NCBI GenBank assembly: GCA_002633005.1
Contig: NMRA01000730.1
Coordinates: forward strand, 1-64,000
DNA: 64,000 nt
Direction: 5' to 3'
Source of the DNA: Phoronis australis
Taxonomy: Eukaryota > Animalia > Phoronida
In this document: positions 3,143-56,550 of the stretch, piece by piece
Position numbering within the stretch: the stretch's first letter is position 1
Layout: each line of letters begins with the position of its first letter
The notes under the pieces: model-generated
Told to the model about the DNA's origin: nothing
Seen by the model: only the letters and a program-made list of their open reading frames with translations
Databases searched by the model: none
Made by a program: the position numbers and the translations under genes

Positions 3143-3157
3143 GTTTCCGCGAGCAAC
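3143..3157. promoter_or_regulatory. RFX X-box-like motif
   Basis: GTTTCC-GCG-AGCAAC is close to GTNRCC-N(0-3)-RGYAAC and lies ~70 bp upstream of the ATG at 3074. Confidence 0.45.
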
Positions 3158-30300: not shown

Positions 30301-33300
30301 ATCTTGTGCCCGGCTCACCTCTCAGAGACTGGCACTTTGAGAGCCAGATATTGTGGGATGCAGATAAGCGCTGAGAAAGTTTGTTCTGCACCATTCCTTT
30401 CGCAGACTGATCTTGTGTAGTGAAGACTAACAAAATAGACATTCATCTAATGCAACAAAACTAGGATTATTGTATTTTATCCCGTTCCAAAGTTTCCGTC
30501 ATCTTGAAGGAGCTTCTAACCATCTCTCCCAACAAATCGACCGGAGTCTGCGGTATTAGCGGACGACTGGTAAGAGCTGTCGAGTTTGTCACCCTGGATC
30601 CACATCTTTGACTTATCCTTGAAAATAACATATTGGGTCTTTGGACTTGAAGCAGGTCAATTTTAAGGAGGGTAGTAAACCCTTTTGTACCAATTACAGC
30701 TCGATATCCGTTCTTTCTGTCTTCATAAAAAAGTTCAATAGGTCTGTTTGTAACCAGGTTTATTAGTATTTACAAACCTACAAATTGTTGACGCCATAAC
30801 AGCCGAGTTTCAAAACAACTTATTCTTCTGCCACTGTTCCAGTTGATTTTTGTTATCGTTTTCTTCCTGGTTTGGATAGCGGAGGGGTATCTGGAGCCGT
30901 GTTCCTGGACCTGAGGAAGGCCTTCGATACCGTGCACCTCCCCTAGCTCTTTTCCAAACTGGAGACCACGGACATCACTGTAAATGTGTAGGCTGGGTTT
31001 AGTGTGCCCACGTGAACCAAGTGTTATCTGATATTTACCCCTTATTCTTGGTGCCCCACAAGGGCCCATTTTGAAGTCACTAAAACATGAACGGTCTAAT
31101 AAATTTACTCCAATCTAAGATAGCAGTATACGCTGTTTTCTGTGGTTTTAAGAAAATCGATGAGGTCGAGTGTACCCCAAACGAATACAGGGTACATGCG
31201 TTGTATAGCAATTTGTGTACTTCTATAACCAAACCTGTTTCTGTACCAGCTGAAGCCGCGCAAATAGCATAATACTCAATCACATTTGAATAGAAAGGTC
31301 GTCAGTAGAATGTGTAAAATAGGTTATTATTTAGGTGTTATTCTTAATATATATTTGACTTTTGATAAGCATTTGTCAAGCATATCGTCCAAAGTGAAGA
31401 GCAGAACCGTTCTTTTAATAGTAACCAATTAAACATTTTGTACAAATCTTCTGTCTTTCCAATCATTGCATACTATAATGTTGTAATGTTCATCATACAG
31501 TATATGTTTTTGTTTCATCTTTTCAATGTTATCATTTCTGCTGAATTGCCTTTACTTTATTTCTAATTTTAGAATTATCTATTTTTGATTTAGTGTGCAC
31601 TGTCTTTTCGTGTCTTTTGTTTGTTGTCCAGTGTTTATTTTACATTGTTTTATGTGAACCCTTGGGTGAGCAATTAATTTTAATTAAAGGTACAACAACC
31701 GAAAAGACAGTTTTCAAATATGAATAATTAAGGTCGTCATAAACTTAAAGTGTTTCCTTGCAGAATATGTGGGTTGGTTCCCTTCGTGTTACAAAGGTAT
31801 CTGAAAAAACCCAAGCTGATCTAGATAACGAGGTTGCCTCCGTAATCTTGAAGCAACCGGAAATAACACCAAAACAAGTTCACTTCTACGTAAGAACTAA
31901 CTGACAAAATGTCAGCATGTACATGTATAACTTGTGATTACTTTCATACTTCTCAGTGGAAAAGGATAACGAGGATGAAATAATGAACGCATTTGCCTCG
32001 ATCACGGAAAGTAATGTTCCACGCAGCCAATCACGTGACGGGATGGAACAGACGCACCAAAAGAGCTCACCGGCTTTAAGGCGTACGTATTGGCTTAATT
32101 ACGAAGAATGCTGTCTTGCAAACCGCATGCGAACTACATATTATAATCATCCCTTATCAATAGTAAAACTATCAGATATCTGTCTCTGGTAAGGACGCTG
32201 TCATTACTTTTGCGTTCATTAAGTCCTTGGGAGTTGTATTATCAAAAACGTATAAGCAACCGTAAGGTAAGCTCGAAATTTTCAATTAAATTGACTCATG
32301 TGTGGCGCACATTCTAGCGTATGAATAATGAATTCACCGCAACCAAGGCGTATGCAATGCGCGACACTGTTTTTCGTTTTTGCGTATGGTGGAGTGTCCA
32401 GTGCGCAAGCCAAGAGCATTCCGAACGCAAACAGCGTGTAAACCGCATGCCTGATGCTTTTCCGACAAATGTTAAGCACATTCCGTGCAGCATGACCTCG
32501 TCGCACGTCTGTGCTCGTGCCCCAATTCCTTTTAAGTTACGCAATGACATTTCCACAATCGTACGCGCAATGTGCACTTTACGTGTTTCTCAACAGTTTT
32601 TGCTGTACGTACACAGGTATGCGCACTGAATACCCAGTGACGCCTGACAGTTTAGGGCATGCTCAGACGCATGCTGCGTGTGCTATTTTTCGCAAATTGT
32701 ACGCCACAAATACGCAGCGCATCAACGCTCAACTCATGAAACTTAATTGTTACATGCAGAAGCACGAAGACCCTCAAACCACAAAGTTTGATTACGGTTA
32801 TAACAATGACGAACGACGAAGGTGACTGCAAACACATTGAAATAAAAAGTAATTCTTTGATCTTGCAGAAGAAGTTGTCAGACCTACAATTTTAACTGTG
32901 GATAGTCCACACAGAAAATCATCATTTGAGGACGAACCTGTTCATTCAAATGACGACAAAGCGAACGATAAGAGAAATGAGATGAAGAACCAGTCATTAC
33001 GTCAAAAAACGATTGAAAAACCTGACCAATGCGTAGGATTGAACGTCACTGGCCATATGTCTGAAAGTTCAGAAGCAGGTCAACACGTGATCAGACCCAC
33101 GTCTCTTCCCGCGGTAGTTGCCAGCCAAAAGCACAACGTAGCGACAGACGTGCTCAGTGAAACGACCCAGATCGTAGCAACATCTACAACAACAGTATCA
33201 GGTACTCTCGCGGCAGCCAGGTGTTCGCCGCTGACCAGCATCGGTAGAGCGTCGCCAGTCGAAAATGACACCTCGTGGTGCAAAACGGAAGTAACTAAAA

Positions 33301-34492
33301 CTACACAAAAATGTTATGAGCATCGAGATACAGGGAAAGTGTATGTTTCGGAATGTACGAGAAGAGGACGTGTTTACCAGAATCGAGAACACTATCGGTG
33401 CAGGTCTGCTAGTCGCAGTAGTTCCTGCTTGACTTCTGAGGACGACGCTCACATTTCATCGCCCGAGAGACCAAATGGCAAGTCTTATCAGTCTAGTTCC
33501 ACCACTGGTGGATTCACATACGATTACTGTCATTGTTATCGATACTGCCACTACCTACCGCAGTATATATACTACCGCCGCCGCCACCGCTTCTGTCATG
33601 TTGAAAGGGTATCATTAGAGAAATATGTTTTAATGAGGCTCATTGGCTTTAAAATTCATTTTGTACTGATCGAAAATGAAGCCGAATGGTTGTATCCTGT
33701 ACAGTTTGATTTCTGTACAGTTTGATTTGTGGCGTGGTTAGTTGGGTCACGTGACCATGTCTTTTAGTCAAATTTAGCAAAAAAGAAAGACACAGTGATA
33801 GAAAAACAGCAGTATCAGTAACAAGGTCAAATTTTGTTTGATATAAATATTTAAGATGGAAAGTTAGCTAAATTTGGACATTTTTCTAAGGTCCTACATA
33901 ACCTTTAAAACTAACACGGTGGTGTAATTCATATAATTATGCGCGCCCAGGCCCCACTACATCGCTGCCAATCAATGGGCAACACACAAGAGTTACGGCC
34001 ATCACTGCCATACGCTCTTTGTTATAGCTATGCTGCATGACTGGTGTACTAATTGGTTGTATTACTTGCCGCACAAATTAAGATCATTTTGTGACAACGC
34101 AACTAGACCCAAAATTGAAAAAAAAAAAACACGGCGAGTCAGAGCACTGTTTGCAACGTGCTGAGGAAATCTTGTCTCATGCAACTTTTGAAACACTGTG
34201 TTTTTCAGATGTTAACGACGCAACAGTGATAGGTGTGGGTCACGAAATAGGTAAAGAGTGGAAGTCACTTGGACGACAGCTTAAGCTAAGTAATATTGAA
34301 CTGGAAAACGTCGATGATTCTAACCACAAGTTACAAGAGAAGGGCGTTCAATTACTGTACTACTGGCGAAGCAAATATGGTTTGGAGGCAACCAGAGAGA
34401 GGCTGGGACAAGCATTGGTCAATTGCAGTCAACGTCGGCTTGCCGAGGAGTTTAATCTAACTTGCATGAGTGCTACGAGCGAGAACGAGTGA
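24312..34492 (+). CDS. Multi-exon gene: acidic N-terminus, tandem ubiquitin-like domains, low-complexity linker, C-terminal death domain
   Basis: Phase-1-compatible exons 24312-24546, 28478-30286, 31957-32082, 32869-33477 (probable GC donor) and 34209-34492, plus an unresolved exon at 31764-31796 or 31764-31889. Acceptors TTTACAG, TATCTTCAG, TTCTCAG, TCTTGCAG and TTTTTCAG are canonical. Confidence 0.75.
25111..25514. mobile_element. Degenerate non-autonomous DNA transposon (possibly hAT-like)
   Basis: Imperfect termini TAGTGCCCGGCGCTTTGGTGA / TCGCCAAATCGAGCACTG and repeated TCGCCAAAT subterminal motifs; no clear TSD. Confidence 0.4.
26800..27137. mobile_element. MITE family A, diverged partial copy
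   Basis: Ends TTTTGAGTACAGAGATTAGAAACCAGGCC|CTG and contains GAACTCGAAATTTCG, like 44663-45062. Confidence 0.6.
27297..28337. mobile_element. Inverted pair of Penelope-like retroelement 3' fragments (GIY-YIG endonuclease), forming a fold-back
   Basis: Arms 27297-27789 (-) and 27841-28337 (+) with a 51-bp spacer. The right arm translates to DCTTTNIISLMICSKCSIQYVGQNQHNLQTRFRNH...RLKREQFWMHKLKTLEPNGLNI with one stop. TA-rich microsatellite on both flanks. Confidence 0.85.
28478..30286 (+). CDS. 1.8-kb exon encoding ~5 tandem diverged ubiquitin-like (beta-grasp) domains
   Basis: Repeated ubiquitin-like patterns, e.g. DTTIKQVKLDISAQTERDEDSLQIYCNQSVLHD, TPLDREKSLKTSGV and FTVGQLKSYVMQKYPV...SVVWNGQCLIEGQTIDSCGIKHEDKIFV. 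No terminal RGG motifs. Confidence 0.8.
30480..31480 (+). pseudogene. Decayed non-LTR retrotransposon reverse transcriptase (CR1/L2-like)
   Basis: Frameshifted motifs in order: TNYSSISVLS, GAVFLDLRKAFDTV, GAPQGPIL, MNGLINLLQSKIAVYA (YADD region), YLGVILNIYLTFDKHLSSISSKV. Confidence 0.85.
34209..34492 (+). CDS. Death domain exon (terminal)
   Basis: VIGVGHEIGKEWKSLGRQLKLSNIELENVDDSNHKLQEKGVQLLYYWRSKYGLEATRERLGQALVNCSQRRLAEEF matches the death-domain pattern seen in RIPK1/FADD/ankyrin. Confidence 0.92.
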
Positions 34493-39170: not shown

Positions 39171-42100
39171 TTACGTGCCACTCTGTTCGCTTTCTATCAT
39201 GAACTGTTCGAAAGCTTCAGCAATTTCATCTTCATCAGCGTCCTCGTATACATCTAACGATCTGCAAATCAAAGAAGATGTCGGGTACAGATCGAGGTGA
39301 GCAGCCTTCTCCACTCGCAGACAAAAGTGCAGACTACATGTGGCATTCAAGGTGAAAACAAACATTAATTAATTGGTATTACCTTTAAATGTCTAGGACC
39401 TTATTAACTACGCATGCAGTCAATAGTCAAGTTACGTGAACGTTACAGTGAAAGGTTACGTTATTGGAGGCAGTGTTGTGTATTTGAGCTCAGCAATGCT
39501 AGGACCTCGCTAAAATCTAGCCAAAATCACGTGTTCTCATTTCAATATCACGCGTAATTTTTGCAAAGACTTGCTTTTTAATGAGGTCCTAGCAGTGCTG
39601 TACTCTGTCCAGGCCTCAAGAGGGATTCAAACCCATGACATCAAGGAGGGTGCAGCGTGACGCTTTCCAAGTAGAGCTAAAAGCTAACGCAGCAAGTAGC
39701 CGAGTATTTTAAAGACTATGTAGGACTAAAAAACTGTCCAACACCATATCTCAGAAATGGCTGACTGTATTCATATGAATCTGTCAGATATCATGCGTTA
39801 TACACTGTTCTCTAAAACACTGTTAGCGATTGCTTCAAAAATGTTCCACTTTTGCATGATGGGCTACCAAAAAGGGACTTTCATGGTTCTCATAAAAAAA
39901 TGAAAAAAGATAATTTAGAAAACAGTAAATTTTTTTGAGATTTCATCCTGAACATCTATATCAAACAAAGTCATGTGCTATGTTGCCACGGATGTACATT
40001 TCCTTTTTGATAAATTTCATAAAAAGAACATGGTCACCAAACCCAGTTAGTACCATATTGGTGTGAAGTCAAACATCAAACTCTACAGCTTTTCTACTTT
40101 CACATACTTTTTCAAAATTAAAATCTGTCGTTTTGTAAAAGCTTGGCTTAATACACAGACTAGGCGATGAAGTCCAACACAATCATGACTCGTTCATTGC
40201 CAAGTTTTAGAACTGCATTTCTCAGTGTCGTATTGATGTTGAGGTTATGTATAACATAGCTTTCAAACAAAAACAAGAGCAACGCGGAGCGTTGAAATGC
40301 GCCCACAATTGCACCGCATACGGTATCCTTCTAGGGTTGTTTATTGGTACCATAAAGTGGCCAGTAGAGGGCATACTTTGCAAAATGGAAAGGCATGGTC
40401 ATTGTCTCCTCAATAGGCTAGGGGCAAAATGTGAGTAATCTTCATAATACAAGCACATCCTATACACCAGTTGCTTAAAGCACCACAGAAACATANNNNN
40501 NNNNNNNNNNNNNNNNNNNNNNNNNNNNNNNNNNNNNNNNNNNNNNNNNNNNNNNNNNNNNNNNNNNNNNNNNNNNNNNNNNNNNNNNNNNNNNNNNNNN
40601 NNNNNNNNNNNNNNNNNNNNNNNNNNNNNNNNNNNNNNNNNNNNNNNNNNNNNNNNNNNNNNNNNNNNNNNNNNNNNNNNNNNNNNNNNNNNNNNNNNNN
40701 NNNNNNNNNNNNNNNNNNNNNNNNNNNNNNNNNNNNNNNNNNNNNNNNNNNNNNNNNNNNNNNNNNNNNNNNNNNNNNNNNNNNNNNNNNNNNNNNNNNN
40801 NNNNNNNNNNNNNNNNNNNNNNNNNNNNNNNNNNNNNNNNNNNNNNNNNNNNNNNNNNNNNNNNNNNNNNNNNNNNNNNNNNNNNNNNNNNNNNNNNNNN
40901 NNNNNNNNNNNNNNNNNNNNNNNNNNNNNNNNNNNNNNNNNNNNNNNNNNNNNNNNNNNNNNNNNNNNNNNNNNNNNNNNNNNNNNNNNNNNNNNNNNNN
41001 NNNNNNNNNNNNNNNNNNNNNNNNNNNNNNNNNNNNNNNNNNNNNNNNNNNNNNNNNNNNNNNNNNNNNNNNNNNNNNNNNNNNNNNNNNNNNNNNNNNN
41101 NNNNNNNNNNNNNNNNNNNNNNNNNNNNNNNNNNNNNNNNNNNNNNNNNNNNNNNNNNNNNNNNNNNNNNNNNNNNNNNNNNNNNNNNNNNNNNNNNNNN
41201 NNNNNNNNNNNNNNNNNNNNNNNCCTCTACATAGTAAGCACATACATGCCAATTTTCACAATCATCCTTTGAGCGGTTTGGTTGATAGAGGGGTGGAAGC
41301 ACAAAAACAGACTCGAAAACAGTAAAAATGGCCACTAGGTGGCGCAAACTATGTCGAATCCATCCGAAAACGGCAGGATAGCGTCATCTCACTACTAGGT
41401 GCCTACATACCAAATTTCATGAAAATCCGTTCAGGACTTTTGAAGATACAAAGGTAAGCGTAAAAAACTAAAATTGCCACTAGGGGGCACACCGGTAGTC
41501 GGATCCATCCGAAAGTTCGCACATGCCGTCCCATTCATGAATGGAACATATGTGCCAAATTTCATGAATGTATGTCAAAGGGTTTTGGAGATAGAGCAGC
41601 GGACGCCGGACGCCGGACGGACGCCGCCCGGACGGACGGACGGACGGACGGACGGCCGGCCGGACGGACGGACGGCCGGACGGACGGACAGAGATGACGG
41701 CATAATGCGTCCACATATAAATATGTGGGCGCATAAAAATGCTAGAAAATCATTATTTATTGGCGGGTTGTTATGAACTTTCAGGGCAAGATGCACACAC
41801 ATCATTTAATGATACGTGTATACTAAGGTAGAGTATTCAAGATGTTCGGTGGAAAAACACTATCAATGGTCAATGAAGGGATTTGGTTCAAAGTCATACC
41901 CTGACGGTCCCAGTTCATATATCGTCTCTGATCCTGTATCGGAAAATTTCAAATGTATAGATAGGCATATCATTGAGTGCAAGTAAGAATTTGATGCCTA
42001 TCACAATAAAAGTACGCCACTGGCGCAAAAACACATTCTACTTTGATTTGTGACGATGTTGACTGAAAGTGTAATCACAAGGTATGTTAAAGTCTACCCC

Positions 42101-45100
42101 TCAAAAACGTGATGCATGTGGATAACCAGAGTCACTTTGAATAGGAACAACTGTTGACCAGGAATTACATATCTCACATCTGATCAGACCACCATGATTA
42201 CTTACGCCTCACTCCAAACACCATAGTCATTGTCTGCACTAGACTCATCAGGTATATACAATTGTGCATCATCATTGCTGGCAAACCCTGCCTCCTCTCG
42301 AGTAATCACTTGTCCCTTGTCATTGTAGAACACTGGCTCAGTCTAGAAAAGTGTAAAAACATGGCTGTCTTTATCATATACAATGGCAACTAATATAATC
42401 TGGGTTAATGCCAAGGGTGTTTAAATTGGCAAAGTCAAAAATTGTTTCGGAAGGGAGCACTCATGAGCATTCGCTCCCCCTTCATGGCTTTAAAAACGAA
42501 AAATCGAAAAATCATAAAGAGGCTAATTAACACCGAGTCTGTTCTCAATCTTATCCAAGCCATGACAGCAATTGAGTTGATTTCTACAAGGCGGGTAAAT
42601 CTTGGAAGGATTGGCCTACCCTGACGAAACTGAAAGCATTTTCAAATTGGTTCTTCTTTACTTGCCCTTGATAATTTGTATGCAGATGAAAATTATTTTT
42701 ATCATGGCATTGAAAGATTTGAAACACACTTTGTATGGATAAATAACCTTGGTTCAGGATTGAAGCCCAAGAAGCATGGTTGGTTCTGGTCTGTGTTTTT
42801 TTTTTCTAAGAAATCGTTGTACTGCTTTGTGCGTTTGCTCCATTCATAATCCCTTGGCACCATGTCAACAACGACATGTGAAAGCTATTGCCAGAGATGT
42901 TTATTAGATACCTGACTGAACGGTGATGGAGTCCTGAACTCGAAATGTTCGCTGGTCGTCGGCGACGGCGTCGACGTATTACGGCCCCAGTTATTACTCC
43001 TCAGATCTACCAAGTTTGCAATTATTTCTTTAGTCAAACTGAAAAAAGAAGAAAAAACTCATCCCTTGCTAAATCTTCTGGGAATATGATCCAGTGGGAC
43101 GACAGAAATTCGAGCTTAGATCTACCACACGAGGTACATTCTGTAGATTCAAGGATCTTGCGACAAAAAATCAAGATCACGCAAGACCATACAACACCAT
43201 GTGACTGAAAGGCGAATGTTTCGCGAGCATGCTCGCTTACCAGTATATTCCAGCAAAAAGATGACCATTGAAATGATTGGTTGGTGAGGTTCAAATGTTG
43301 ACTTATGGGACAAAACTTCATGTTTCTGTTCCATAACCAAAGATTGTTTGAGTCCACGCGAACCAGACCTGGTCTTAGTTTTTCCTGCTCCACGAGTTTT
43401 CCATGCATAAAAGTATTTGTTTTTTTTCCAGGTCATGTGAAAACCTACTAAATGTAGCAACCACCTTGTTGAAAACTGAATATTCCATAAATCTTATACG
43501 GTTATTTCCGACAACATGGTGGGCTAAATCAAAAAATATGTGAAGGCAGGAGGAATTCAGCCTCCCTCTTTGCCTAAACACACATTTGCATCCCTGACAG
43601 AGTGTGACATTTGCTACAATATCGCATTAGTTGGTTACCTGCTAAATTTCTCAAGCATAACTAAACGAAGTAGTTCAAACAGATTGTCCAGTCCTGTCGA
43701 GTCACCCGCTATCCTTAAGTCATCTTCTATAGCCGAACCACAGAACTGTAAAAATAATTTCGGTTCTGATGAAAGCAACTACACATAGATTCACCTGCAA
43801 TAAGGAGAATAATTGTCTGTCAGGGCCCTTGATTTTAATACCGAGCGCTGTCATCATTTCCCTTCTAAAGAACTATCTAAAAATTCCCTTCATTGAGTCA
43901 CAAAATTTCCTTCAAACGATGAGAAAGTCCCTCCTAAATCAACATCCCAAAACTAAGAAACTCAAAATACAAACAACATGCTCAGCAGCAGAAGAGTCTA
44001 CTTCCGCAGGGTTTCATGATTAATTCGTGGAACAGGATATGGAAAAGTTCATTACAAGTGCGGGGGTGATTAGAGTCTCAAGAACAGGAATACTCTGGGA
44101 TTTGCTGGTACAGAAACTGATATCCCTACCAAGCTGGAGGAAGCATTGAAAGATCAGGTCAGTGGGTGGTACAATTGTCTCAGTACGCAGTGCTTTGGTT
44201 GACCTAATTACCGGAAAATTGGATATGACAGGGTGGTGAAAAATAAAATGCCTTTTCTTAATGTGAGTTTGCAACCTGGAACATTACACATTGAACAGGA
44301 GCAGTAACGATAGATTAAGCAGGATTGGTAAACAGATACAGTGAACACTATTCTAAAAACAATAATCCGAAATGATGGATGTATTTTTGTGGCAGGAGTT
44401 TTAAAAATTCTCCGGAAATGTTTTACCTGTAACTATCCTTTACTAATTAATGTCTCTGTTTTAACCAGGTTTGGAACTTTTTAGCACCCCCCCAGAAACA
44501 GCTTTTTAGCAATCCCCCATAAATCACTTTCACATTGTATCCAGGTTCTCAGTCACTCCCTTGCATAAATTCACTATTAAGACCCGAGATCAGAGGAGTA
44601 AGAGACCTACGTCTACCAGTAAAGCCAAGATTTGAGTTTGGGTCTCCCAAGTGCTAGTCCTGGGCCTGGTCTCCAATCTTTTACTCGAAATGGAACTCGA
44701 AATTAGGTTAGGTATTCTCAACTCTACTTTTGGGCGAACTCAAGATAAGTGTCTATTATTCTGTGCTCGAGTACACAATAACTTACGTAGATAATTTATT
44801 GCCCTTAGTTCAGAGTTTGTAAACCCAATATTAAAGCAATAAGTTCGAGTTTGAACTCGAAATTTCGAGTTTTTACTCGAGTTTGTAGCACGAATATAAG
44901 GGTCTTCAAGGGCAAACTTGAACTAGAAACTCCTATGCATAAACTAGAATGCATTAGAGCACAGTCTGATAACCAACTATCTTAAGTTCGTACAAAAGGA
45001 GCAGAGGAATTGCCAAAAATAGTTTCGAGTTCGTTTTGAGTACAAAGATTAGAGACCGGGCCCTGAGCTCTTACCACTGAGCCACACTGTCTTCTCCTTG

Positions 45101-48100
45101 GAATTCAAATGAAAACCAACAGTCATTAATGGATAAAATTCATACACATTCAGGTGCACAGCATTTTTTCAGAGGCTTAACACGTAGTTGCAAATGGTCA
45201 AAAGTTCATCAAATTTCGTTTGGAAATAGCCACACCATACAAATCATGTTGTAAGCAAAGTAAATTTTCCTGGAAAGTTATTTTTGTTGAGAGCTTTCAG
45301 AAAGAATGAAACTTCAGCTGTCCACCATATTGCGTCCCAAGTCAAGATTTTTTTTACCATAGTTTCATCAAACTTCAAAACACGGACGGCCACCAATCTG
45401 ATGACCAGATCCTTCACACTGTCTTTCCGAGGTTATTTCAGTCCACAAAACGACCTTGGCATTCACACTGCTGTGTCTGATGTTCTTTTATCATTACCTT
45501 AAGTGTTTGTACAACACATTTAATGTTGCCATCAGTGGTGGGTAAAGTAGATAGTAGAACTAACAGCTCTAGGATCTTCGTTTGTAAAATTGCAACCCTC
45601 GCTGAAGAACCATCAGCCTTTTTAATCTGGAAAGGAGACAGTTGTAAAGCAAGGTACAAATACAAAGCCCACAGTTTGGGAAATTCATAAGCTTAACTAA
45701 GCACATAACGAAGTAAATCTTTCAAATTAACCCAATGGTATTAATGTATGCTAGCTATCACTTAAGCTAAATTACGAATCCGTTGCTAAATGACCTCTGT
45801 TGCCACGTTAGCGTTGGATTTGGAAGTCAAAAAGAGGGTGCTGTTATTATTGTGTTGTCGCATGGAATTTCGTCCAATTTCCTGTGCCCTATTTCCTGTG
45901 CCTGATCATTAGGTCATATTGGTTGTCTAGTGTTAAATCCTTCTGACATTTTTATTATCATCAAATTTGGTATCACACCCTTCTTACATCTTGATATTAT
46001 CAAGTCTGGTATCACATCTTTCTGACATCTTGATATTATCATCAAGTCTGGTATCACATCTTTCTGACATCTTAATATTATCATCAAGTCTGGCATCACA
46101 TCCCTCTGACATCTTAATATTGTGATCAAAACTGGTGTCACATCTTTCTGACATCTTGATATTATCACCAAGTCTGGTATCACATCCTTCTTACATCTTG
46201 TTATTATCATCAAGTCTGGCATCACATCTTACATCTTGTTATTATCATCAAGTCTGGTGTCACATTATCTTAACATATAGATATAATCATCAAGTCTGAC
46301 TAGCATCACATCCTCCAGACATCTTTATATAATCATCAACCCTGGTATCACATCCTTCTCACATCTTGATATTAACATCAAGGACTTATTAAAGCCATAA
46401 CTAAATAAAATTTCCAGTCCATGAAAATGTCCCTAGAAATTAACCACCATACATTCACAGGCAAGTACCGCCAAGCAATTTTGGTTACAGGCGATCAAGG
46501 GAAAAAATCAGTGAAGGCACACATGGTAAAGAACGACAATAAATTATTGCAAAGTCCACTTCTGGTTTCCAAAATGCCTGAATTTCAATAATTGATTTTT
46601 TCAACATAATGGCATCTTGCTATCAATGTAAGGATAAAAAATTGGCAAATCATTGCAAAATCGCGAATCGGAATTGACCTCCAAAAATAGGTAATCTATC
46701 ACTTACCAATAGACTCAAGTAAATTTCTCCAATAAACTGGGTAAAGCCGTAGACTTTAGAAACTGTCTCGGGGGATTTTAAGTTGGCTGACGCTCTGTTG
46801 AATTCATCATGACACCTGAATCATATATTAGTAATTGGTGATGGCTAGCAAAAGACTGCCTCAATTTTTTCAGCAACTATGTGGTTCCATAATTAAGGTC
46901 TTCATTACACTGAACAAAGCAAATATCAGACAAGCAATGACAATTACATAGAATAGAGTCCTTAAACACAAGCACATACATACGCGTTTCGACAAGAGCA
47001 CCATGTGCAAACAGCTGTTTAACTATAATCTTGTTTAACTATAATCTATAGTACATGACAAAAGGAGCCATGACCACTAAATCTGTTAAAAGCAAAAATG
47101 ACTAGTAACAACTATTACAACGACAAACTTCAAAATACAAAATGGGTTAACCACCTTACTAAATGTTTTTTTTTGTTCACCATTCATTCTCGGTCATGAG
47201 CAATGACTACTCTGACAATAAAATTTGACTTCTGTCATGATGGCTAATTTTGTCTGAATACGTTCACCATTCATTCTCGGTCATGAGCAATGACTACTCT
47301 GACAATAAAATTTGACTTCTGTCATGATGGCTAATTTTGTCTGAATACGTTTGCCAAATACTGCAAACTTTTTATACTGACCTTCACACACACACACATT
47401 TGTAAGCATGTTACTATAAATTTAAAGTGGCCAGTTTATCGCGATTTGACACGGAATCATGCTCTGACATGTTCCCACCACCTTTAATAGCCCAGGATAT
47501 CAAACTTCGGAATTCAAATTTCCCTCAAAAGTGAGCATATAGAAACCAAATGGTTTCCCTGAATATAAAAGTTGTTAGATACATTAGACCAGAGCATCAT
47601 GCATTCAAGTTCAATTGGACAATTATCGTTAAAGCAGCTGCCTTCTCACCTTAGCATAGTTCAGTAAAAGCTTGCGAACAGACAGCAGTCACGTGACTTG
47701 TATAACAGCATAGACAATATGCATAATTATACCATTGATTGTTTACCGACTGTTGTTTATAAAAAAGTTATAGGCACCCGAAATGGCCTTTCACGAAATG
47801 ATGATTCAAAAAACTGTGAACACAATTTTATGTGTCTATAGAGAAGGGTAAACTGTAAATAATTACTCTTCTTCCACGCCATACGTTGGTTAAATCACTG
47901 AGTTATCAGAACCACTGGGTACTAAGTGCTGAAAAGCATTAACTTCCTTGTTTCGATGAGCGACTACACTGGCAGCATCNTTGTATAACAGCATAGACAA
48001 TATGCATAATTATACCATTGATTGTTTACCAGGACTGTTCTTTATAAAAAAGTTATAGGCACCCGAAATGGCCTTTCACGAAATGATGATTCAAAAAACT

Positions 48101-51100
48101 GTGAACACAATTTTATGTGTCTATAGAGAAGGGTAAACTGTAAATAATTACTCTTCTTCCACGCCATACGTTGGTTAAATCACTGAGTTATCAGAACCAC
48201 TGGGTACTAAGTGCTGAAAAGCATTAACTTCCTTGTTTCGATGAGCGACTACACTGGCAGCATCATTCAACCTTCCTTTATAGCACAGCATATTACAACA
48301 ATATCCCACAAATGAGAAAATACAAGAAAAATGACTTTACTTGAATTTTTTATCTACACAGACATGAGAGTGACGTATAAATTCACCCAGTGCCAGTGTT
48401 TCCATTACAAATTGTGACATACCGTTGCTTCTCCGATATCCCACGGGAAACTGAATAGAGCCACAGCGTGCTCAAATACTGAGCTGTCACAACCGTCACA
48501 AACCCAACTCCTTAACAATCTTTACTATATCATAAACCATAGGAAGCAGTATCTAATGACTTTTCACCCAAACACAATGGAGAATTCATCATACTGTGAT
48601 GGGTTGTCACCATTCTACATAAGACGTATCGACCACTAAATGCCTGTTTGTCGTAACTTGAGATCAGCCAATTCACATACCGTCAGTGCTTGGGGATGTT
48701 GTAATTTGAAAGCTGATCGACTGGTGAGTCGTTTATAAGCATTTTTGATATGGAATTAGCGGTTAAACACTTTAAAATTCCAGTCAGCTGGTTAGCATCA
48801 AGTCCTGGTTCGAGACTCGGTCAAGACTGAGATCTTTTCAGACTTAAGTTATGACGTGACCAACATGTAATTCCTACAACATTAACGTGCCTATTTACAG
48901 CCCAATTATAAACTGTTAATGGTACACCAAAATCCCTTTTTGGATGAACCCTTCCTTTCCAAAGCCAATTCGAACTAATTTGTTTGTAAATTCCAAATTT
49001 AGAAATAACATACCTTTTCATCAGGTGACTTCGAAAGGTTCCCAATCCTGAATCACACACTGCTACTAGTGAAGTACACAGGTGACTGCATAGACGAGCT
49101 GCAGAGTAACGTATATTCCTATCTGAAATGGCCTGAAATTAGACCATCAATCAAATAGATTTGTTTCTTATCAAACATAAAGATTCTAGTCCACTAAAAT
49201 TCAACAATTCTAGCCACAAGTCAACAGACGTGTTAAAGAAATCACTCATGCTCTCTAAAGGTGGCGCAGTGTTTTTTCATGGCATGCAGCACGTTATCAT
49301 TTAAACGGACCTGTGGCACAATTCAGCATAAAAAGTAAGAAAATTGCAAAATCATTTTATTTTCAAAGTAAAACAGAATTTTCTAACCTACAAAACAGAA
49401 CAAAACAGAATTTGATGTTTGTTAAAACAGATTTCATTTTTTAATGGAAAACCACAGTCTTGGCTAGGCGCTATGGGCACCCTAATGTTGGTGAACAACT
49501 TTCTGTTCTTAATATATTTCAAGAAAAGGAGGATCCATTTTTTAATAAGCACTATTTTGTAACTGACTTTCAGAGTGTCTGGATGTCAGTTACCCTGGGA
49601 AATGTCCAATTTTGGCCAACTTTGGAACATTGTATCTCAGAAATGGCCAATCAGGTTCCCACAAAACTTTCAGATACTAGGCGTTCTACACTGCTCTAAA
49701 AAATGCTACTGCGAATTGTTTTTAAAACGTTCCACTTATGCATGAAGGACTTTTATTATATTTATAAAAATGAGTTACATTTAATGAAACCAAATAAAAA
49801 TTTACAAAACTGTAACATCGTTTCTTAGATTTCATCTTGAACTTCATATCATACAGCAGTTGAAATAAACATTTATGGGTGGTGATCTTCACAAGAAATT
49901 TTAAATTATGGGTGGTCCTCCTTGAAAGAAGTTATAAAACTGGATGGTGTTTTTTGTCCTGTTAACTTAACAGGTGGGTATTTTCAGTCAAACACATCTC
50001 AAAAGAAGCCAAAACTCACCAAAAAATCACTTGAAAGATATCAAAAAATCTATCTAAACAAAAAAACCCATGTTGCTAGTGTACAGAGTGCAATACGTAC
50101 ACTATGCTGTTAATCTAGTCATGGGCAACTTGATTACAACCACGTGTACTGCAGTCACAATAGAATGAAAATTACTGCAACGCTAAACTGGTGTTAACAC
50201 ATCTAAGAAAATTGCTAATTTTTTAAATAAAAAGCATGAGGAGTCAGATAGCCAAGTTCCAATTTTAACTTGACATAGCAACCTTAAAGCGTTCGTGGAG
50301 ACAGTTTGAGATTCATAGATCCATGAAATTGAAAAAATCTTATTGAAATTACAGACACATGGTGCACGGAGACATCTGGTGCCTGCTTAAAGTATTGCTC
50401 ACAGGTGTCTTTGAAAAACATACAAGTTTCTGGTAACTGACATGAGTAAGATCTCACATGGAAACTTTCTGTACCCATAAAAACTGTGGTCAGTCCGTCT
50501 GTAATTATCATTTCTTGTCCAACAAGAATCGCTTGGCAGATCACGATGAAATTTGATACAGAGGTACTTGGCAGGGATGAGCCAGCTCCAGTCGAATTTC
50601 AGGCGGATTTGGCTAACTTGGTACCCCATGTTGGCTGCTTTAGTTTTCGACAAGCCATTCCTTGTGCGTCAATTATCTCAAAAATTGCTCGATGGATGAC
50701 GATGAAATTCGAAACAGAGGTATATGGCAAGAATGTGCCGGCACCAGTCAATTTTGGACGGATTCATCAACTGTGGCACCCCCTGTTAGTTTTGGACTGC
50801 TCAAACCATTGATTGAGGTCTTGAAACCGCTAAACGGATCATGACAACATTTGGCATAGCGATAGATGGCTGGTATACACCAGCACCAGTCGATTTTCGG
50901 ACAGATTTGGCTATTGTAGCACCCCTGTTGGCCATTTTAGTTTTTGACAAGATTAACACCTCAAAAACTGCATTTTATATTTCAACCTAATTGAAAATTA
51001 TGGGTCATGGGTGGGAGAAATAAGAGAAAAATAAGGGCGGTGGGTAAGAAATGAAAGTGCTCCCCCACCCCCTTCCATACATTTTTACTGGAACAGCCCT

Positions 51101-54100
51101 GACCTATCCAGTGACAGATTGGTATTATAAAATCAAAACTAAAACTCTCCAGAAATTCTGCTTTCAGAAAATATATAGTTTTGGAGAGTTCGTTTTGTAG
51201 ATATTTAGCTTTAAGTGTACAGACAGGTCCCACAAACCTAATGCTATGGTAATAGAATGAATTATTAAGATCACTGAATATCTAACACACTATATTCTGC
51301 ACGTCATAATTTGGATATAAAAACCACGCGACACAGAAAATCCTGAACGAAACAGGGAATTGTTCAAGGCAATGTCAGATTCTCGTTTCATGAACTGCGC
51401 AGTAATTAAGGCGTTACCATTCCATGAGTTGCTCACTCACCTGCTGTACAATTAAATCTATCACAGACAACAGCACGCTGTCATTGGTTTGATAAGCAGC
51501 TAGCGTCTCCCTTAGCGACGACGCGAGATAGTCGAGAGAGCTGGGACTGGATGACAGCTGGCTCAGAGTGTACTGAACTTGTTCCACAATGAACACGCAG
51601 TCTTCTTCGAATCCCTGAAATTGTACCGCCCACAATTATCAGATCGATTACTGCCACCAAACTGGTCTCATCTCGCACCACATGTTCGGATCTTTTTTGA
51701 AAAACGATGCGAGGGGCAGTATTTTTCGTAGCTCAATTTTTCAAAAAATAAGATCAACCTGAGACAAGGAAAAATTATGCAGGTTTCTTTTACTCATCCC
51801 TTGACAACTCACATTTCAAACCTTTCTTACTCTTTCCTTCATGCCTATGTACAATTTTGAAAAAACACAAGAGTCTGCATTAAACAGATGTGAGTGGACA
51901 GACTGGATCAAAGGTCTTAAAGATGAGTTAGGCACATATCTGAGCCAACTATGGTTTGTTTTGGCATTAGCCACATCAGAAGGGATTTCGGGGGTTATGA
52001 CGAATTGACAGCTCCCTGTTACGCAACAAGAAGTTGAAAAAAGACACAACAATCAGGACGTACATACTAAAAAATAGGTAAGTTTAAATTCTGGCAGGTC
52101 AAGTTCATTCTTAATTAATCGTATTACTACAATATACGCACACTTAAATTCGAAGTGTCGCTGGCTTCCCCATCTCCTGCGGCTATGTTTTTACGTGGAA
52201 CAAATTCTTGAGCATCTGCTGACAGTGGTTTAGGGATAAATTCAGGAGCATCTGCAGACAGAGATGTATTTTGTTTTGTGTTTTGTGGGACAAAGACATC
52301 AGCGTTTATGTTTAGAGAACTCGTCACAGATTTTGACGATTCTTGTGTTGGATCTGAGTTTTCGGTACCACATGGTGAATCATCGTAATCTCGGTGAGTT
52401 AGCTGTCTACTGGGACTGTCTGCTGGTGAGCTGTGACTGGACTGTTCAGCGTCTGAAAGCAAACACAAAGTACACATCAGAAAGACATGAATATTAATTA
52501 AGGATATCAGTAATCTCAATAATAAGTGGATTTAGTCAAATATTTACAAAACCATTGATGGAAATTAAATCCAAAAATATAGAATTTTGAACATAATACC
52601 AATTGAAACTGCCCATTTTTACCTCAAATCTAGCCTTTACAAAACAGAAAAACAAAAAATAAATATAAAAATAACATGTTTATTGATAAAATGTCATTTG
52701 ACGAGGATAAGAGGAAGGACTTTTGCACACCTTTCAGACACAAGCTCACCCTGTGTTATATATGGTGAAAGAGTTTAAGAGTTAAACGGCTCATAAACAA
52801 TGAAAATGTGGCTATAGATGAATACACAAACATATATAAAACAAACCAGTATGGGAATTCTTATCTAATACATAACATAGTGCAATAACACTATCAAAAA
52901 ATATCTAAACTGACAATGTAACAAAAAATAAAAATTCAAATGACAGTCGAGTTCTGTTTATCTCTAGGATAATACCTCTAAGGACATTCATACATACCAC
53001 TCCATTTATCCGCATTTGTGTCTGAAGTATCTGTTAGAATTGTGCGAATATGAGGTTTTGAGTATAAAATAGTTAAAAATAGGAGGATTTTGTGTCACTA
53101 CTTTGTTGTGTGATAAATGAGCAAAAGTGTGAGTGTATTAATGGTTGCAAATTAATTTGCGATTAAACTTGGGTTTTTAAAAAAATCTATAATTCTCAAA
53201 ATTGCATGCACTGAGCTTTGATGGATTTACTCAAAAGTGCTTACACTGGTTCCCAGAAAGCTCTATCACAGGTGCATTAGTAGAACACACGGGTAAAGTC
53301 TGCATCTCCTCAACTCAATAAGGACAGCGAAAAGTTTGGAAGGGTGAAAGGTGTATAATAAATTTCTTTTATTAGTTTTTCATTGTAACAATTACTTAAG
53401 GGCCCAAACTTAGCATGTGTTAGTGCAAAAGTTTGCATAATAGAGTTTTTAACCTAAGCCTTATTATAAGTGTCATAATTAATTACAAGAAAGTCGTTAC
53501 TGCCCATGGTAAGGGGACCACATTATTTCATATACGTGAAATTCATTAAAGCGCAAAAACCTCCTACCCAGGTGCAAACACAAAGTTAAGAACAGTTGAA
53601 ACAATATTCTAGACCAAACCATGGGGGTAAAATTAACATATAAGCAGCATATCTGTTTACTAGTAGGTCAGTGACTTTGTCCAGTTCAGGCACTTTCCAA
53701 ACCAGTATCTTTTAATATTAGTTTAAATTGGCAACCTCAGATCTTAGTCAGGTAGTCAAAGGTGACTTTGACGATGACTATATGTGTATTGTCAATGCCA
53801 TTGACATAATTGTCCAAATCTCATGTTAAAAATGTGAAACAGCGCTCATGGGATGTTTGACATAACAGTTGGCTGCAAACAGTAATTTTATAGATATCAG
53901 GTCCTCAGTAGCTCAGTCGCCAATGGTAAGAGCACTAGACTCGCAACCTGTGGTTCGATTCCCAATTGGGGTTCGCGATTTTTAATGCTTATTTGATATA
54001 TTTCACTATTGCCAAGCTCAGCATCTATGTATTCATTGGTATATCAGTATAAGAATACTGTATTTTTGGAATCAACATATGGGTAGGATTAGGAAAATAT

Positions 54101-55233
54101 TAATATCAAGTGGCTATACTTTTGGAACCAAGTTGTACACAATAACCTAGATTTGTTCAAAGAGCAGTAATTGCCGAGATCACCCAACCCAGGGACCAAC
54201 CTCAGTCACTGAGTCAGTGAACCCGATACAGTTACGAGACCTGAGTACAACCAGCAAGACTGCTAACTGTAGTAAGAGCCAAGATTACCCGACCCGGGAA
54301 TCGAACCAGCGACCCCCATAAAACCGGCAAGTGTGCTAACCATTCAGCTAATAGGCAATTGCCCGTTAGCGAGTGGCTAACAGAGGCTCATATATGATTC
54401 ACCAGAAGCACGTCTACAACATTCCCCCCTTTCCTACGGAACGGGCACGCCACCAGGAAGGTGAACACCAGGATGTCTCCCATACGTAGGTCATCAATGT
54501 CTCTTGGTACTTTTACCAACACAACACACAGGTGAACACAACGTAGTCTCTCATACACAGGTCCTCGACTCCTGCAACCTTCCATGCGCACTGTCCGCGG
54601 GTACTAGTTGGCAGTACTTCATCCGTTTGCCGACTACGCCACTTGTAGTAATAGCCGAGATTACCCAACCCGGGGATCGAACGAGGGACCCCCATAAAAC
54701 CAGCAAGCGTTCTAACCATTCAGCTAATAGGCAATTGCCCGTTAGCGAGTGGCTAACACAGGCTCATATATATGATTCAGCGGAAGCTCGTCTACAACAT
54801 AACCATTCGGCAAATAGGCAATTGCTCATTGGAGAGTGGCTGATAGAAGCTAGTATGATTTACCACAGTCACGTCTACAACAACAGTTTGCTTACACTAA
54901 CCAGGCAGTAATGAGATGAATACAAACCCGCCTCCCGTTCAGTAACGCTAGGACCTCGCTAAAAAGCAAGACTTCGCGAGATTATGTGAGATACTGCATT
55001 TTAAATGAGAGCACGTGACTTTGACTAGGTTTTAGCTAGGTCCTAGCGTAGGTCCTATCGTCTACTGAACGCACGCCTGAACTTCGACTCAACACAGATT
55101 CATAGGAAAGAGACGAACCTAACTTGGCGACAGTTTCAGGATGAGGTGGTCTAGGTTTCATCATTCCTCGCCCTCGGCCTCTACCACGACCAGCGCTAGG
55201 CGTGGTATCGCCAGGAGAATCTGTGCTTGACAT
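39171..55233 (-). CDS. PAIP1: Polyadenylate-binding protein-interacting protein 1, 10 coding exons, 472 aa
   Basis: Exons 55233-55119, 52452-52142, 51614-51441, 49132-49014, 46815-46707, 45626-45498, 43745-43639, 43038-42912, 42342-42206 and 39261-39171 splice in frame (1419 nt, all GT-AG). Contains PAM2 motifs, MIF4G segments (YSAARLCSHL, FTQFIGEIYLSL, LVDLRSNNWGR), TEPVFY and an acidic C-terminus DEDEIAEAFEQFMIESE. Confidence 0.95.
39620..40250. repeat. SINE-like head (- strand) followed by an interspersed repeat shared with ~49560-49900
   Basis: GGGATTCAAACC...TAGAGCTA are tRNA-like boxes on the minus strand. TATCTCAGAAATGGC...GTTCCACTT(T/A)TGCATGA recurs at ~49630-49745. Confidence 0.5.
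40272..41739 (+). mobile_element. Non-autonomous Helentron-type (HINE/Pearl-like) element spanning the assembly gap
   Basis: AACAAGAGC...GCGCCCACA 5' end; internal ~140-bp diverged repeats (GCCACTAGG...CCAAATTTCATGAA); (GGAC)n microsatellite at 41600-41690; terminal hairpin ATGCGTCCACATAT-AA-ATATGTGGGCGCAT. The hairpin recurs inverted at ~57129-57165. Continuity across the gap is assumed. Confidence 0.65.
40496..41223. other. Assembly gap (N run)
   Basis: Run of N. Confidence 1.
44663..45062. mobile_element. MITE family A full copy (PIF/Harbinger-like, CTG TSD) inserted into a tRNA-SINE head
   Basis: TIRs GGCCTGGTCTCCAATCTTTTACTCGAAA / TTTGAGTACAAAGATTAGAGACCGGGCC with CTG duplicated. The flanks rejoin on the minus strand to GTGGCTCAGTGGTAAGAGCTCAGGACTAGC. 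Confidence 0.85.
45940..46382. repeat. ~42-bp minisatellite, ~10 diverged copies, in a PAIP1 intron
   Basis: Unit ACATCTTGATATTATCATCAAGTCTGGTATCACATCTTTCTG. Confidence 0.95.
47175..47348. repeat. Exact 87-bp tandem duplication
   Basis: GTTCACCATTCATTCTCGG...GTCTGAATAC occurs twice, identically. Confidence 0.9.
47698..48264. repeat. ~283-bp tandem duplication across a single N, likely an unmerged haplotype overlap
   Basis: 47698-47979 and 47981-48264 are near-identical and separated by N at 47980. Confidence 0.85.
50485..50960. mobile_element. Diverged Helentron-type element remnant with three ~140-160-bp internal repeats
   Basis: Recurrent ATGAAATT...CCAGTCGA(A/T)TTT...GCACCCC(C)TGTT units following a GTCAGTCCGTCTGT microsatellite remnant. 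Confidence 0.5.
52142..52452 (-). CDS. PAIP1: PAIP1 exon 2 with three PAM2 motifs
   Basis: SSLNINADVFVP, TSLSADAPEFIP and KPLSADAQEFVP. Confidence 0.92.
53901..53985 (+). mobile_element. tRNA-derived SINE head or tRNA pseudogene
   Basis: TAGCTCAGT...TGGTAAGAGCAC...GGTTCGATTCCC; the D and anticodon arms are disrupted. Confidence 0.55.
54163..54882 (-). mobile_element. Older diverged LTR of the TRIM family, split (54163-54267 and 54800-54882) by the younger TRIM
   Basis: The left half AGCAGTAATTGCCGAGATCACCCAACCC...CCAGCAAGACTGCTAAC and the right half TAACCATTCGGCAAATAGGCAATTG...GTCTACAACA align to successive parts of the TRIM LTR. Confidence 0.75.
54268..54799 (-). mobile_element. Complete non-autonomous miniature LTR retrotransposon (TRIM) with tRNA-like LTRs
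   Basis: LTRs 54799-54644 and 54421-54268 (TGTTGTAG...ACTACA); PBS TGGCGTAGTCGGCA (54641-54628); PPT AGGAAAGGGGGGAA (54435-54422); 4-bp TSD TAAC; A box TAGCTGAATGG and B box (G/C)GTTCGAT(T/C)CC in each LTR. Confidence 0.9.
54931..55076. mobile_element. MITE family B copy in PAIP1 intron 1
   Basis: Close copy of 23970-24119; flanks CCG/CTG. Confidence 0.8.
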
Positions 55234-55239
55234 TCGCAA

Positions 55240-56550
55240 GATATCGGGGAATTATTTTCCAGACACAATTGACTTACAAGGATTGCTTATGAGATGTTGT
55301 TCTGAGACGGCCGGAAATACCCACAATTCTAACTAACAGCCCAACTTCCCGTTTTCAACATTTTTTTTACTTGACGAGTTTATTACTTAACTGTGTTCAC
55401 AAAGGATTAGGAAATATATTTTCGTGTTCAAAAAGGAAAATTGTATGTTCGAAGGATTTTTAAGAGAATAAAGTAGCAGTAAGAGTGTCTTTTTCAAAAG
55501 TCCTGTTTGGTGAATCACATTTTAGTACAAATTGTTGCCGCAAGGGATTTGGTGTGTGGGACCTCTGCTTAGTTGCGACCCTGAGTCTCAAATGATAACG
55601 CACCCATAGATCTATTTTAATTCCAAGAAATAAAAGTATTTTATCTTATGGGTGTAATTGTAAAAAGTGATCGCAATGCTGCAACTTGTGCAGTAACAAA
55701 CGTGCAACATTGTGACACCGTCAGTGGCAGCCGCCACCTTGGCTCTACATAAATAGTAATTGACAATAATGAAAAATATAGTGGAACAGAAATCTAAAGT
55801 AATTTTGTCCACTTAAAATATAAAATGAGTACAAGTTTTATGTATACAATTGTTTAATGTAATGGACTATATAAAAAAATAAATTAAATTTAATGTTTTT
55901 TTATTAATGCTTAGTGTCAAATGGTCATTATTATAATTCTCCTATGCGCGGGAAAATGCGCAGGACATTGTTTTGACTGAAAGAAGAGATAACGTGCAAC
56001 CCGTTGAGTTTGTGGTGAAACCTCCACACAGATTTATCTATAAAAAGGTGAGTTACTTTGTGATACAGGAGTAGTACCTACGAGTAAAGTCATCATATCT
56101 TCGAAACAAACTTGTTTCATTTCACACACAGTGCGTCGTTTACAGCTGTTTGTTTACAGTACACGACTGAAATTGAAAAGCTCGAGTCGTTCAGTCAACT
56201 CGGACTCGGTGTCAGTGGAAGCTCCTCTCATCCGACTTCCGCCGTTACCCCCTGGTTACCTTCTTACTTACGCTGCTTCGTTGCGGAATTACGTCTTGGC
56301 TTGATTTTGAACCTTCACACTGTGTTATTAGCACTGTAGTGAAGAACGCGATTGTGACCTGTCGTTCCATGTGACTCTTTGCACTAGTGTAATACTATTA
56401 CACTGTAATAGTATTACTTTTACTATCAGTGTGGCTCTGGTAGGATTGGGTTGGGATTTAATTGAGAATTCTTCTGATTACTGTATCACAAGACTAAGGA
56501 TATCTTCCGAAGATGTCTCTTAACATTTCTTATGAGTATTTTGACAAAGG
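55240..56550. promoter_or_regulatory. Divergent PAIP1/ELOF1 promoter region with probable ELOF1 5' non-coding exon(s)
   Basis: Head-to-head genes; ETS-like CCGGAAAT (55311) and ACTTCCG (~56235); + strand donors AAG|GTGAGT (~56048) and AAG|GTACGT (~56550). The ELOF1 ATG lies 2 nt after an acceptor, so an upstream exon is required. Confidence 0.55.

What the first reader, a model, noticed from the sequence alone, without database searches (positions are those of the whole stretch)
54268..54799. Miniature LTR retrotransposon whose LTRs contain a tRNA-like Pol III promoter
Seen (minus strand): 156- and 154-bp LTRs with TG...CA ends, a PBS TGGCGTAGTCGGCA 2 nt after the 5' LTR, a 222-bp non-coding interior, a PPT abutting the 3' LTR, and a TAAC TSD. 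Each LTR holds a TATA-like CATATAT, a GTTAGC-CACTC-GCTAAC hairpin and a tRNA-like segment with A box TAGCTGAATGG and B box GGTTCGATTCC. Established: the PBS is complementary to the 3' end of a tRNA-Ser (...UGCCGACUACGCCA), and plant Cassandra TRIMs carry 5S-derived Pol III promoters in their LTRs. From memory (unverified), tRNA-bearing TRIMs called Ajax were reported in molluscs. Inference: a SINE/LTR hybrid transcribed by Pol III and mobilised by a Gypsy-type partner, possibly a new family or host range.
Basis: partly seen in the sequence, partly recalled or inferred. Interest (0 to 1): 0.85.

Follow-up and report, generated by a model that had tools for sequence, protein, structure and literature searches.

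The report
New Helenus-type tRNA-promoter mini-retrotransposon
A 532-base gene-less jumping element in an animal genome carries tRNA-gene promoter boxes in its end repeats and sits inside an older relic of its own family; it is a new family of the known 'Helenus' kind, likely copied by RNA polymerase III, with a self-pairing stretch predicted to join the two ends of its RNA.

Summary
The element is real: 156- and 154-bp LTRs (141 of 154 identical), a 14-nt PBS matching tRNA-Ser(AGA), a 14-purine PPT and a 4-bp TSD. Related copies are abundant in DNA contigs of one sample. It meets the stated definition of animal Helenus (Kojima 2024: tRNA-like LTRs, 4-bp TSD). No published family has this PBS. 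This scan has already found Helenus-like elements in fungi and diatoms. Correction: only the 3' LTR has a canonical B box. Two things were missed. (1) The element is inserted just after box A of an older solo LTR of its own lineage. (2) The small hairpin is part of a 49-nt stem (z about -4 to -5) in which U3 is antisense to box A around a loop-less palindrome. It is predicted to pair the RNA's 5' and 3' ends. By eye, the same core precedes box A in 54 of 76 published non-insect animal Helenus LTRs and both Ajax LTRs; the paper's text does not mention it. Pol III transcription, the Gypsy partner and the host taxon were not shown. Verdict: new member of a known kind, with one testable structural lead.

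The parts
54644..54799 (-). 5' LTR, 156 bp, TG...CA
54268..54421 (-). 3' LTR, 154 bp, TG...CA; 141/154 identical to the 5' LTR, K2P 0.090
54422..54643 (-). non-coding interior, 222 bp, with a 37-nt internal direct repeat (78% alike)
54628..54641 (-). primer-binding site, exact 14-nt complement of the 3' end (with CCA) of tRNA-Ser(AGA)
54422..54435 (-). polypurine tract, 14 purines, abutting the 3' LTR
54800..54803 (+). target site duplication TAAC, copy beside the 5' LTR
54264..54267 (+). target site duplication TAAC, copy beside the 3' LTR
54716..54726 (-). box A of the 5' LTR (full match to TRGCNNARYGG)
54673..54683 (-). box B of the 5' LTR, off-consensus at its first base in this copy
54340..54350 (-). 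box A of the 3' LTR
54297..54307 (-). box B of the 3' LTR, canonical, 32 nt after box A
54766..54774 (-). TATA-like CATATATAT in the 5' LTR (CATATAT at 54390-54396 in the 3' LTR); function untested
54334..54382 (-). 49-nt self-complementary stretch of the 3' LTR: U3 arm antisense to box A and D-arm, loop-less palindrome GGCAATTGCC at its centre (54354-54363)
54710..54758 (-). the same self-complementary stretch in the 5' LTR (palindrome 54730-54739)
54320..54323 (-). T4 run between boxes A and B (also 54696-54699); the only T4 runs on the element strand; candidate weak Pol III stop, inferred
54800..54882 (-). 5' part of an older related solo LTR, cut just after its box A by the insertion; 69 identities, 13 mismatches to 3' LTR nt 1-85
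54163..54267 (-). 3' part of the same older solo LTR, about 33 extra bases and a decayed end; flanks CTGT/CTTT are a possible decayed 4-bp TSD

Best explanation
This is a gene-less miniature LTR retrotransposon of the animal Helenus kind, inserted with a 4-bp duplication into an older solo LTR of its own lineage; it is likely transcribed by RNA polymerase III from the tRNA-type boxes in its 5' LTR and likely copied and integrated by a Gypsy-type helper using tRNA-Ser as primer. Shown: LTRs, PBS, PPT, TSD, boxes, nesting, many related copies. Inferred: TFIIIC binds boxes A and B and Pol III starts near LTR nt 55-62; the RNA runs through PBS, interior and PPT into the 3' LTR; helper Gag-Pol packages it, primes at the PBS and PPT, and integrates it. 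Predicted: the RNA's first 32 nt pair with U3 and the palindrome of the 3' LTR, closing a panhandle that would bring the two short R copies together for first-strand transfer or let two RNAs dimerise. This particular copy is not young (LTRs 9% apart) and its 5' LTR B box is off-consensus, so it is probably a weak template.
For: Anatomy. PBS equals the start of antisense tRNA-Ser oligos in two papers and of a tRNA-Ser(AGA) gene called by ARAGORN in L123. Helenus definition and 4-bp TSD for animal members, Ser primers in 5 bivalve families, Gypsy partner inferred by the author. Repeat family: summed contig depth 64,116 and 216,002 over two 3' LTR bins and 1,424-11,419 over interior bins against about 40 in unique flanks (X1; one sample, not a copy number); contig X8 record 1 covers 54287-54692, i.e. 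parts of both LTRs and the whole interior, with 27 other letters and 28 gap letters. B box canonical in about 98% of depth at 54683. Nesting: flank alignments score 101 and 59.5 against maxima of 38 and 47.5 in 2000 shuffles each. Long stem: -24.1 kcal/mol, z -4.9, 0 of 500 shuffles; z -4.05 and -3.54. End-to-end pairing of 24-28 of the first 32 nt in 19 of 20 start/end choices.
Against: No direct sign of a Pol III transcript: in 3 RNA runs (18-19% of each read) the 3' LTR bins hold more antisense than sense reads (113-237 against 43-74 over 54270-54383), few reads are 99% alike, and the two listed pile-ups of ends (5 of 9, 10 of 35) lie beside mismatches of this copy. A TATA-like element is present, so Pol II is not excluded. 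No autonomous partner was found; no genome is held. TSDs of other copies were not seen. The stem folds nearly as well on the opposite strand (-20.0 against -24.1 and -20.3; DNA -7.4 against -7.6), so an RNA-level role is not shown. The truncated 5' part of the older copy does not fold better than shuffles (z -0.34). The T-run that precedes box A in many published families is only TATT here.
Confidence: 0.85

Rival explanations
1. An ordinary Pol II TRIM whose LTR once captured a tRNA-SINE head. The boxes are passengers, the CATATAT element drives Pol II, and the long stem is a leftover inverted duplication.
For: TATA-like motif about 30 nt before the likely start; no Pol III-type start seen in RNA reads; Kojima states that Helenus promoters are not validated; stem has little strand bias.
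Against: Box A is a full match in both LTRs and box B is canonical in about 98% of depth from other copies while the cloverleaf is lost. TATA elements also serve Pol III genes (own knowledge). No AATAAA in the LTR (sequence).
Confidence: 0.12
2. The family moves mainly as a short SINE-like Pol III RNA, or the locus is a chance tandem of SINE copies rather than an LTR element.
For: LTR sequence is far more abundant than interior in DNA contigs; each LTR alone looks like a tRNA-SINE head.
Against: Exact TG...CA ends, PBS 2 nt inside, PPT abutting the 3' LTR, 4-bp TSD, no A-rich or repeat tail. An excess of solo LTRs is reported for Helenus.
Confidence: 0.03
3. On the nesting only: the helper integrase prefers Pol III-bound DNA, so new copies land in or beside older tRNA-box elements.
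For: Clean insertion at the 3' edge of box A of a related LTR. In the relaxed scan of the window, 2 of 3 A/B box pairs lie within 450 bases here. Ty3, a Gypsy element, targets Pol III genes (search listing).
Against: One event. The site lies about 25 nt downstream of the predicted start, not at it as for Ty3. A very abundant MITE-like repeat sits in the same intron, so the place may simply tolerate insertions. The host's own boxes are decayed.
Confidence: 0.2

Closest known systems
Helenus, animal families (TRIMp3; Kojima 2024, PMC10886601), nearest in look: bivalve Helenus-2_MyGa, -2_MoPh, -2_LimFor and Helenus-5_PeMa
   Same: Under 1 kb, no ORF, tRNA-type boxes A and B in the LTR, PBS and PPT, 4-bp TSD. 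Helenus-2_MyGa has the same first ten LTR bases, a Ser primer and a 226-bp interior. By eye the self-complementary core before box A and the T-arm region resemble bivalve, nemertean and fish families.
   Different: PBS is the tRNA-Ser(AGA) type; 0 hits for it or for four LTR motifs of this element in the paper's supplement (line breaks can hide motifs inside LTRs). No T-run after box B; T4 lies between the boxes. Host taxon unknown.
Ajax (Kojima 2024)
   Same: TRIM with a Pol III-type promoter. By eye both Ajax LTRs carry the same palindromic core followed by a box A-like stretch.
   Different: Ajax has 5S rRNA boxes A/IE/C, 5-bp TSDs, a Leu-type primer and is known from two nemerteans. None of these holds here.
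Cassandra (plant TRIM)
   Same: Pol III promoter inside the LTR; transcript starts in the 5' LTR and ends in the 3' LTR with an 18-bp repeat; whole elements are modelled as a super-hairpin through LTR self-complementarity (PMC7215508 section 2.4).
   Different: 5S-derived, plant, Met primer; Pol III transcription is shown for Cassandra and not here.
Ty1 PAL1/PAL2 dimerisation palindromes (PMC6844567)
   Same: Self-complementary palindromes near the 5' end of an LTR-retrotransposon RNA, needed for dimer formation and mobility (passages).
   Different: Functional analogy only; Ty1 is an autonomous Pol II Copia-type element and no homology is claimed.

Membership tests
TRIM | under 1000 bp, two LTRs, no coding capacity | tested here: met
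   532 bp; LTRs 156/154; no Pfam hit in 4 frames scanned
TRIM | PBS after the 5' LTR and PPT before the 3' LTR | tested here: met
   14-nt tRNA-Ser(AGA) complement; 14 purines
Helenus | [quoted passage not shown] | tested here: met
   TAGCT..TGG in both LTRs; GGTTC in the 3' LTR and in about 98% of depth from other copies at the one deviant base of the 5' LTR
Helenus (animal) | 4-bp TSD | tested here: met
   TAAC on both sides of this copy; other copies' TSDs not seen
Helenus | interspersed family with solo LTRs and other full-length copies | tested here: met
   high contig depth over LTR and interior, one other LTR-interior-LTR contig, an older solo LTR at this locus
Helenus | does not encode a functional tRNA | tested here: met
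   no ARAGORN or Rfam tRNA call; no cloverleaf in the predicted fold
Helenus (animal) | PBS shared with an autonomous Gypsy element of the host | not testable with these tools
   no genome held; collection scans found no partner
TRIMp3 | transcribed by RNA polymerase III | tested here: inconclusive
   RNA-seq reads from the family lie on both strands with no clean start; also unvalidated for published Helenus
A published Helenus family | sequence identity to one of the listed consensus sequences | tested here: not met
   motif searches of the supplement gave 0 hits for the PBS and four LTR motifs; all non-insect animal entries read by eye; no alignment run
Ajax / Cassandra | 5S rRNA-derived promoter in the LTR; 5-bp TSD (Ajax) | tested here: not met
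   no 5S hit in Rfam at E up to 10; TSD is 4 bp

The most novel reading that the evidence does not exclude
Pol III-driven TRIMs of animals share one ancient working module: a U3 arm antisense to box A around a loop-less palindrome whose letters turn over while self-complementarity is kept. It closes the short genomic RNA into a panhandle or dimer, which solves strand transfer with a very short R. Fish, coelacanth, bivalve and nemertean Helenus, 5S-bearing Ajax and this family would then descend from one ancestor rather than from separate SINE captures, and the family may also home into its own Pol III boxes.
Probability: 0.3. Interest if true: 0.65.

Novelty: new member of a known kind. Interest (0 to 1): 0.42.

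Why it matters
The kind is described, so the element by itself adds one family and one primer type. The lead worth following is structural. Kojima 2024 proposes separate births of Helenus in fish, bivalves and wasps, and leaves open how a Pol III RNA gets its terminal repeat and is recognised by a helper. A self-complementary core shared across those groups and Ajax would argue for common descent or a strong common need, and gives a defined 50-nt target for covariation analysis and RNA probing. Self-nesting, if general, would be a first sign of Pol III-site targeting by an animal TRIM helper.

Tried and rejected
Whole-genome search: no genome held. Host taxon: three homologue searches found nothing; the search of representatives gave one weak hit, a plant ubiquitin-like protein at 28%, which says nothing on the host; the Atlas did not answer. 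Only 'an animal' is inferred (Death domain, PAIP1-like exons). Copies or partner in public collections: 0 in viral contigs for LTR end plus PBS, 0 in metagenome contigs for an LTR motif; 120 loci with the bare 14-mer and 3 metagenome loci share at most 23 aligned bases with the element, so none is a relative; a tRNA-Ser end motif gave 0 in viral contigs. No RNA holder was listed for the stretch. RNA end pile-ups at 54750 and 54682 rejected as start sites: one run each and beside mismatches of this copy. The 86-88% of RNA reads that run on into unlike sequence are mostly from the neighbouring MITE-like repeat and were not used for the TRIM. The 10-bp palindrome alone is not rare (82 in the window); only the long stem is. 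A general T4-terminator model was set aside because LTR-11_DR, read by eye, has no T4. Self-priming is not needed: the PBS is a perfect tRNA match. The 148-aa frame on the + strand has no Pfam hit.

Full report
1. Observation. On the minus strand, 54799 to 54268 is a 532-bp element: 5' LTR 156 bp, interior 222 bp, 3' LTR 154 bp, both LTRs TG...CA, 141 of 154 aligned bases identical with one 2-nt gap, K2P distance 0.090 (6 transitions, 7 transversions; not calibrated to years). A 14-nt PBS begins 2 nt after the 5' LTR, 14 purines abut the 3' LTR, and the four bases on each side are the same (TAAC on +). Box A matches TRGCNNARYGG fully in both LTRs. Box B is canonical only in the 3' LTR; the 5' LTR differs at its first base. 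ARAGORN and Rfam call no tRNA or 5S RNA, and the segment does not fold better than shuffles (z -1.05 and -0.69). The PBS is the exact start of antisense oligos to human tRNA-Ser in two papers (one passage each of PMC3299991 and PMC13478228) and of the reverse complement of a tRNA-Ser(AGA) gene in L123.

2. It is a repeat family. No genome is held, so I laid public data on 53700-55400. In four DNA runs of one sample, which may be the source of the assembly, summed contig depth in X1 is about 40 in unique flanks, 64,116 and 216,002 over two 3' LTR bins, and 1,424-11,419 over interior bins (the tool warns that this is no copy number). One contig bridges the 3' junction with one difference. At the deviant B-box base, 9768 of 9971 depth in X1 carries the canonical letter. 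A 416-nt contig of run X8 spans parts of both LTRs and the whole interior with 27 other letters and 28 gap letters, so at least one other LTR-interior-LTR copy exists. TSDs of other copies were not visible.

3. Nesting. The flanks are the two halves of an older LTR of the same lineage. Upstream 54882-54800 aligns to LTR nt 1-85 (69 identities, 13 mismatches; score 101 against at most 38 in 2000 shuffles) and downstream 54267-54165 aligns to nt 84-153 (57 identities, 12 mismatches, 34 gap positions; 59.5 against at most 47.5). The break falls at the 3' edge of the host's box A, in the same orientation. The host's flanks match at 3 of 4 bases, a possible decayed TSD. All of this lies in an intron of a PAM2-motif gene, with a second tRNA-box repeat and a MITE-like repeat within 500 bases. 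One event cannot separate targeting from a tolerant intron.

4. LTR nt 40-88 fold into one 20-pair stem (-24.1 kcal/mol; z -4.9; 0 of 500 shuffles) in which U3 is antisense to box A and the D-arm and the centre is a palindrome with no loop bases to spare; a homodimer is predicted 11 kcal/mol more stable than two monomers. A 49-nt window over it ranks 15th of 17,996 sampled, most of the better ones being a microsatellite. For a transcript starting at 5' LTR nt 55-62 and ending at 3' LTR nt 72-154, 24-28 of the first 32 nt pair with the 3' LTR in 19 of 20 cases. Against over-reading: the opposite strand folds nearly as well, 10-bp palindromes are common (82 in the window), and the cut, decayed host half shows no significant fold.

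5. What is known. Kojima 2024 (PMC10886601; I read parts 1-4 and 6 of 6 of the text and parts 1, 5, 6, 7, 9, 10, 11 of 11 of the supplement) defines Helenus as TRIMs with tRNA-like LTRs, with 4-bp TSDs and inferred Gypsy partners in animals, and Ajax as 5S-bearing, nemertean, 5-bp TSD. Five bivalve families use Ser primers of other sequence. The PBS and four LTR motifs of this element give 0 hits in the supplement; its first ten bases occur once, in Helenus-2_MyGa. Searches for Helenus with TRIM or tRNA terms list 3 papers each, and for TRIMp3 one relevant paper; subscription journals and Repbase were not searched. This scan has noted Helenus-like elements in fungi and diatoms (unchecked notes).

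6. The shared core. Reading the published LTRs by eye, a self-complementary core directly before box A is present in 18 of 18 chordate, 33 of 51 bivalve, 3 of 3 nemertean, 0 of 3 brachiopod and 0 of 1 ctenophore entries, 54 of 76 in all, and in 2 of 2 Ajax LTRs. Central four-mers differ (among them ATAT, CCGG, CATG, TGCA, TTAA, AATT, GTAC, GATC, TCGA) but mostly stay palindromic; some cores have a one- to three-base centre. Wasp and fungal entries were not tallied. This tally is not computed and needs a proper alignment. The paper's text has 0 occurrences of hairpin, palindrom- or nested. The idea has precedents: Cassandra elements are modelled as super-hairpins through LTR self-complementarity (PMC7215508, passages and section 2.4), and Ty1 RNA dimerises through 5' palindromes (PMC6844567, passages). 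Bivalve biv-TRIMs have hairpins in the interior, not the LTR (PMC6934838, passages). Passages of the Cassandra preprint 10.1101/2023.07.14.548913 added nothing on nesting.

7. Mechanism. Shown: the parts, the family, the nesting. Inferred from standard LTR-retrotransposon and tRNA-promoter biology: Pol III starts upstream of box A in the 5' LTR, the RNA reaches the 3' LTR, and a Gypsy-type helper primes with tRNA-Ser and the PPT and integrates with a 4-bp stagger. Predicted: end-to-end pairing or dimerisation through the palindromic stem. How the RNA ends is open; the only T4 runs on the element strand lie between boxes A and B, about 10 nt after the long stem, which forms in full only in the 3' LTR. 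RNA-seq does not settle the polymerase: the library looks stranded from a neighbouring exon, 3' LTR bins are mostly antisense, interior bins lean slightly sense (16, 26, 17 against 12, 10, 3 at 54498-54554), and no clean start is seen.

8. Verdict. A real, moderately old copy of a new Helenus-type family; new member of a known kind. The host could not be placed beyond 'animal'. Interest 0.42, carried by the shared self-complementary core and the self-nesting; the bolder reading has probability about 0.3.

Noticed in passing
window about 53811-54005 (+): A second repeat with tRNA-type boxes (box A-like at 53909, box B at about 53952), 300 bases from the finding on the other strand; summed contig depth 7,600-10,300. 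By eye it resembles the bivalve Helenus type that lacks the palindromic core. No TG...CA pair with a TSD was found, so it may be a SINE or a decayed solo LTR.
   Followed up: partly
window 54930-55077: A MITE-like repeat with 20-nt inverted arms and very high depth in DNA and RNA; further copies at 23969-24118 and 39498-39593.
   Followed up: no
window 39623-39679 (-): Degenerate A/B box pair beside the MITE-like copy at 39498-39593.
   Followed up: no
window about 42200-55300 (-): Exons of a gene with PAM2 motifs (PF07145, E 1.5e-11) that looks like PAIP1 by eye (name recalled). The finding lies in its intron after the exon ending near 55120, in the sense direction; that exon is covered by RNA reads of one strand.
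   Followed up: partly
window 28438-30420 (+): A 660-aa single open frame with several ubiquitin-like stretches and no close relative among 1.84 billion representatives.
   Followed up: partly
window 34082-34492 (+): Death-domain exon (PF00531, E 1e-10).
   Followed up: no
window 27620-27826 (-): Weak GIY-YIG hit (E 7e-4, below the curated cut-off), possibly a Penelope-like relic.
   Followed up: no
window 41607-41689, 45937-46382, 47697-48264: CGGA microsatellite, a 42-bp minisatellite of 10.7 copies and a 285-bp tandem duplication at 98%.
   Followed up: no
PMC10886601 supplement, Ajax-1_NGe-LTR and Ajax-1_LiLo-LTR: Both Ajax LTRs carry, upstream of the 5S part, a palindromic core and a tRNA box A-like stretch like those of nemertean and bivalve Helenus (by eye). 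Ajax may be a Helenus whose box B half was replaced by a 5S promoter.
   Followed up: no
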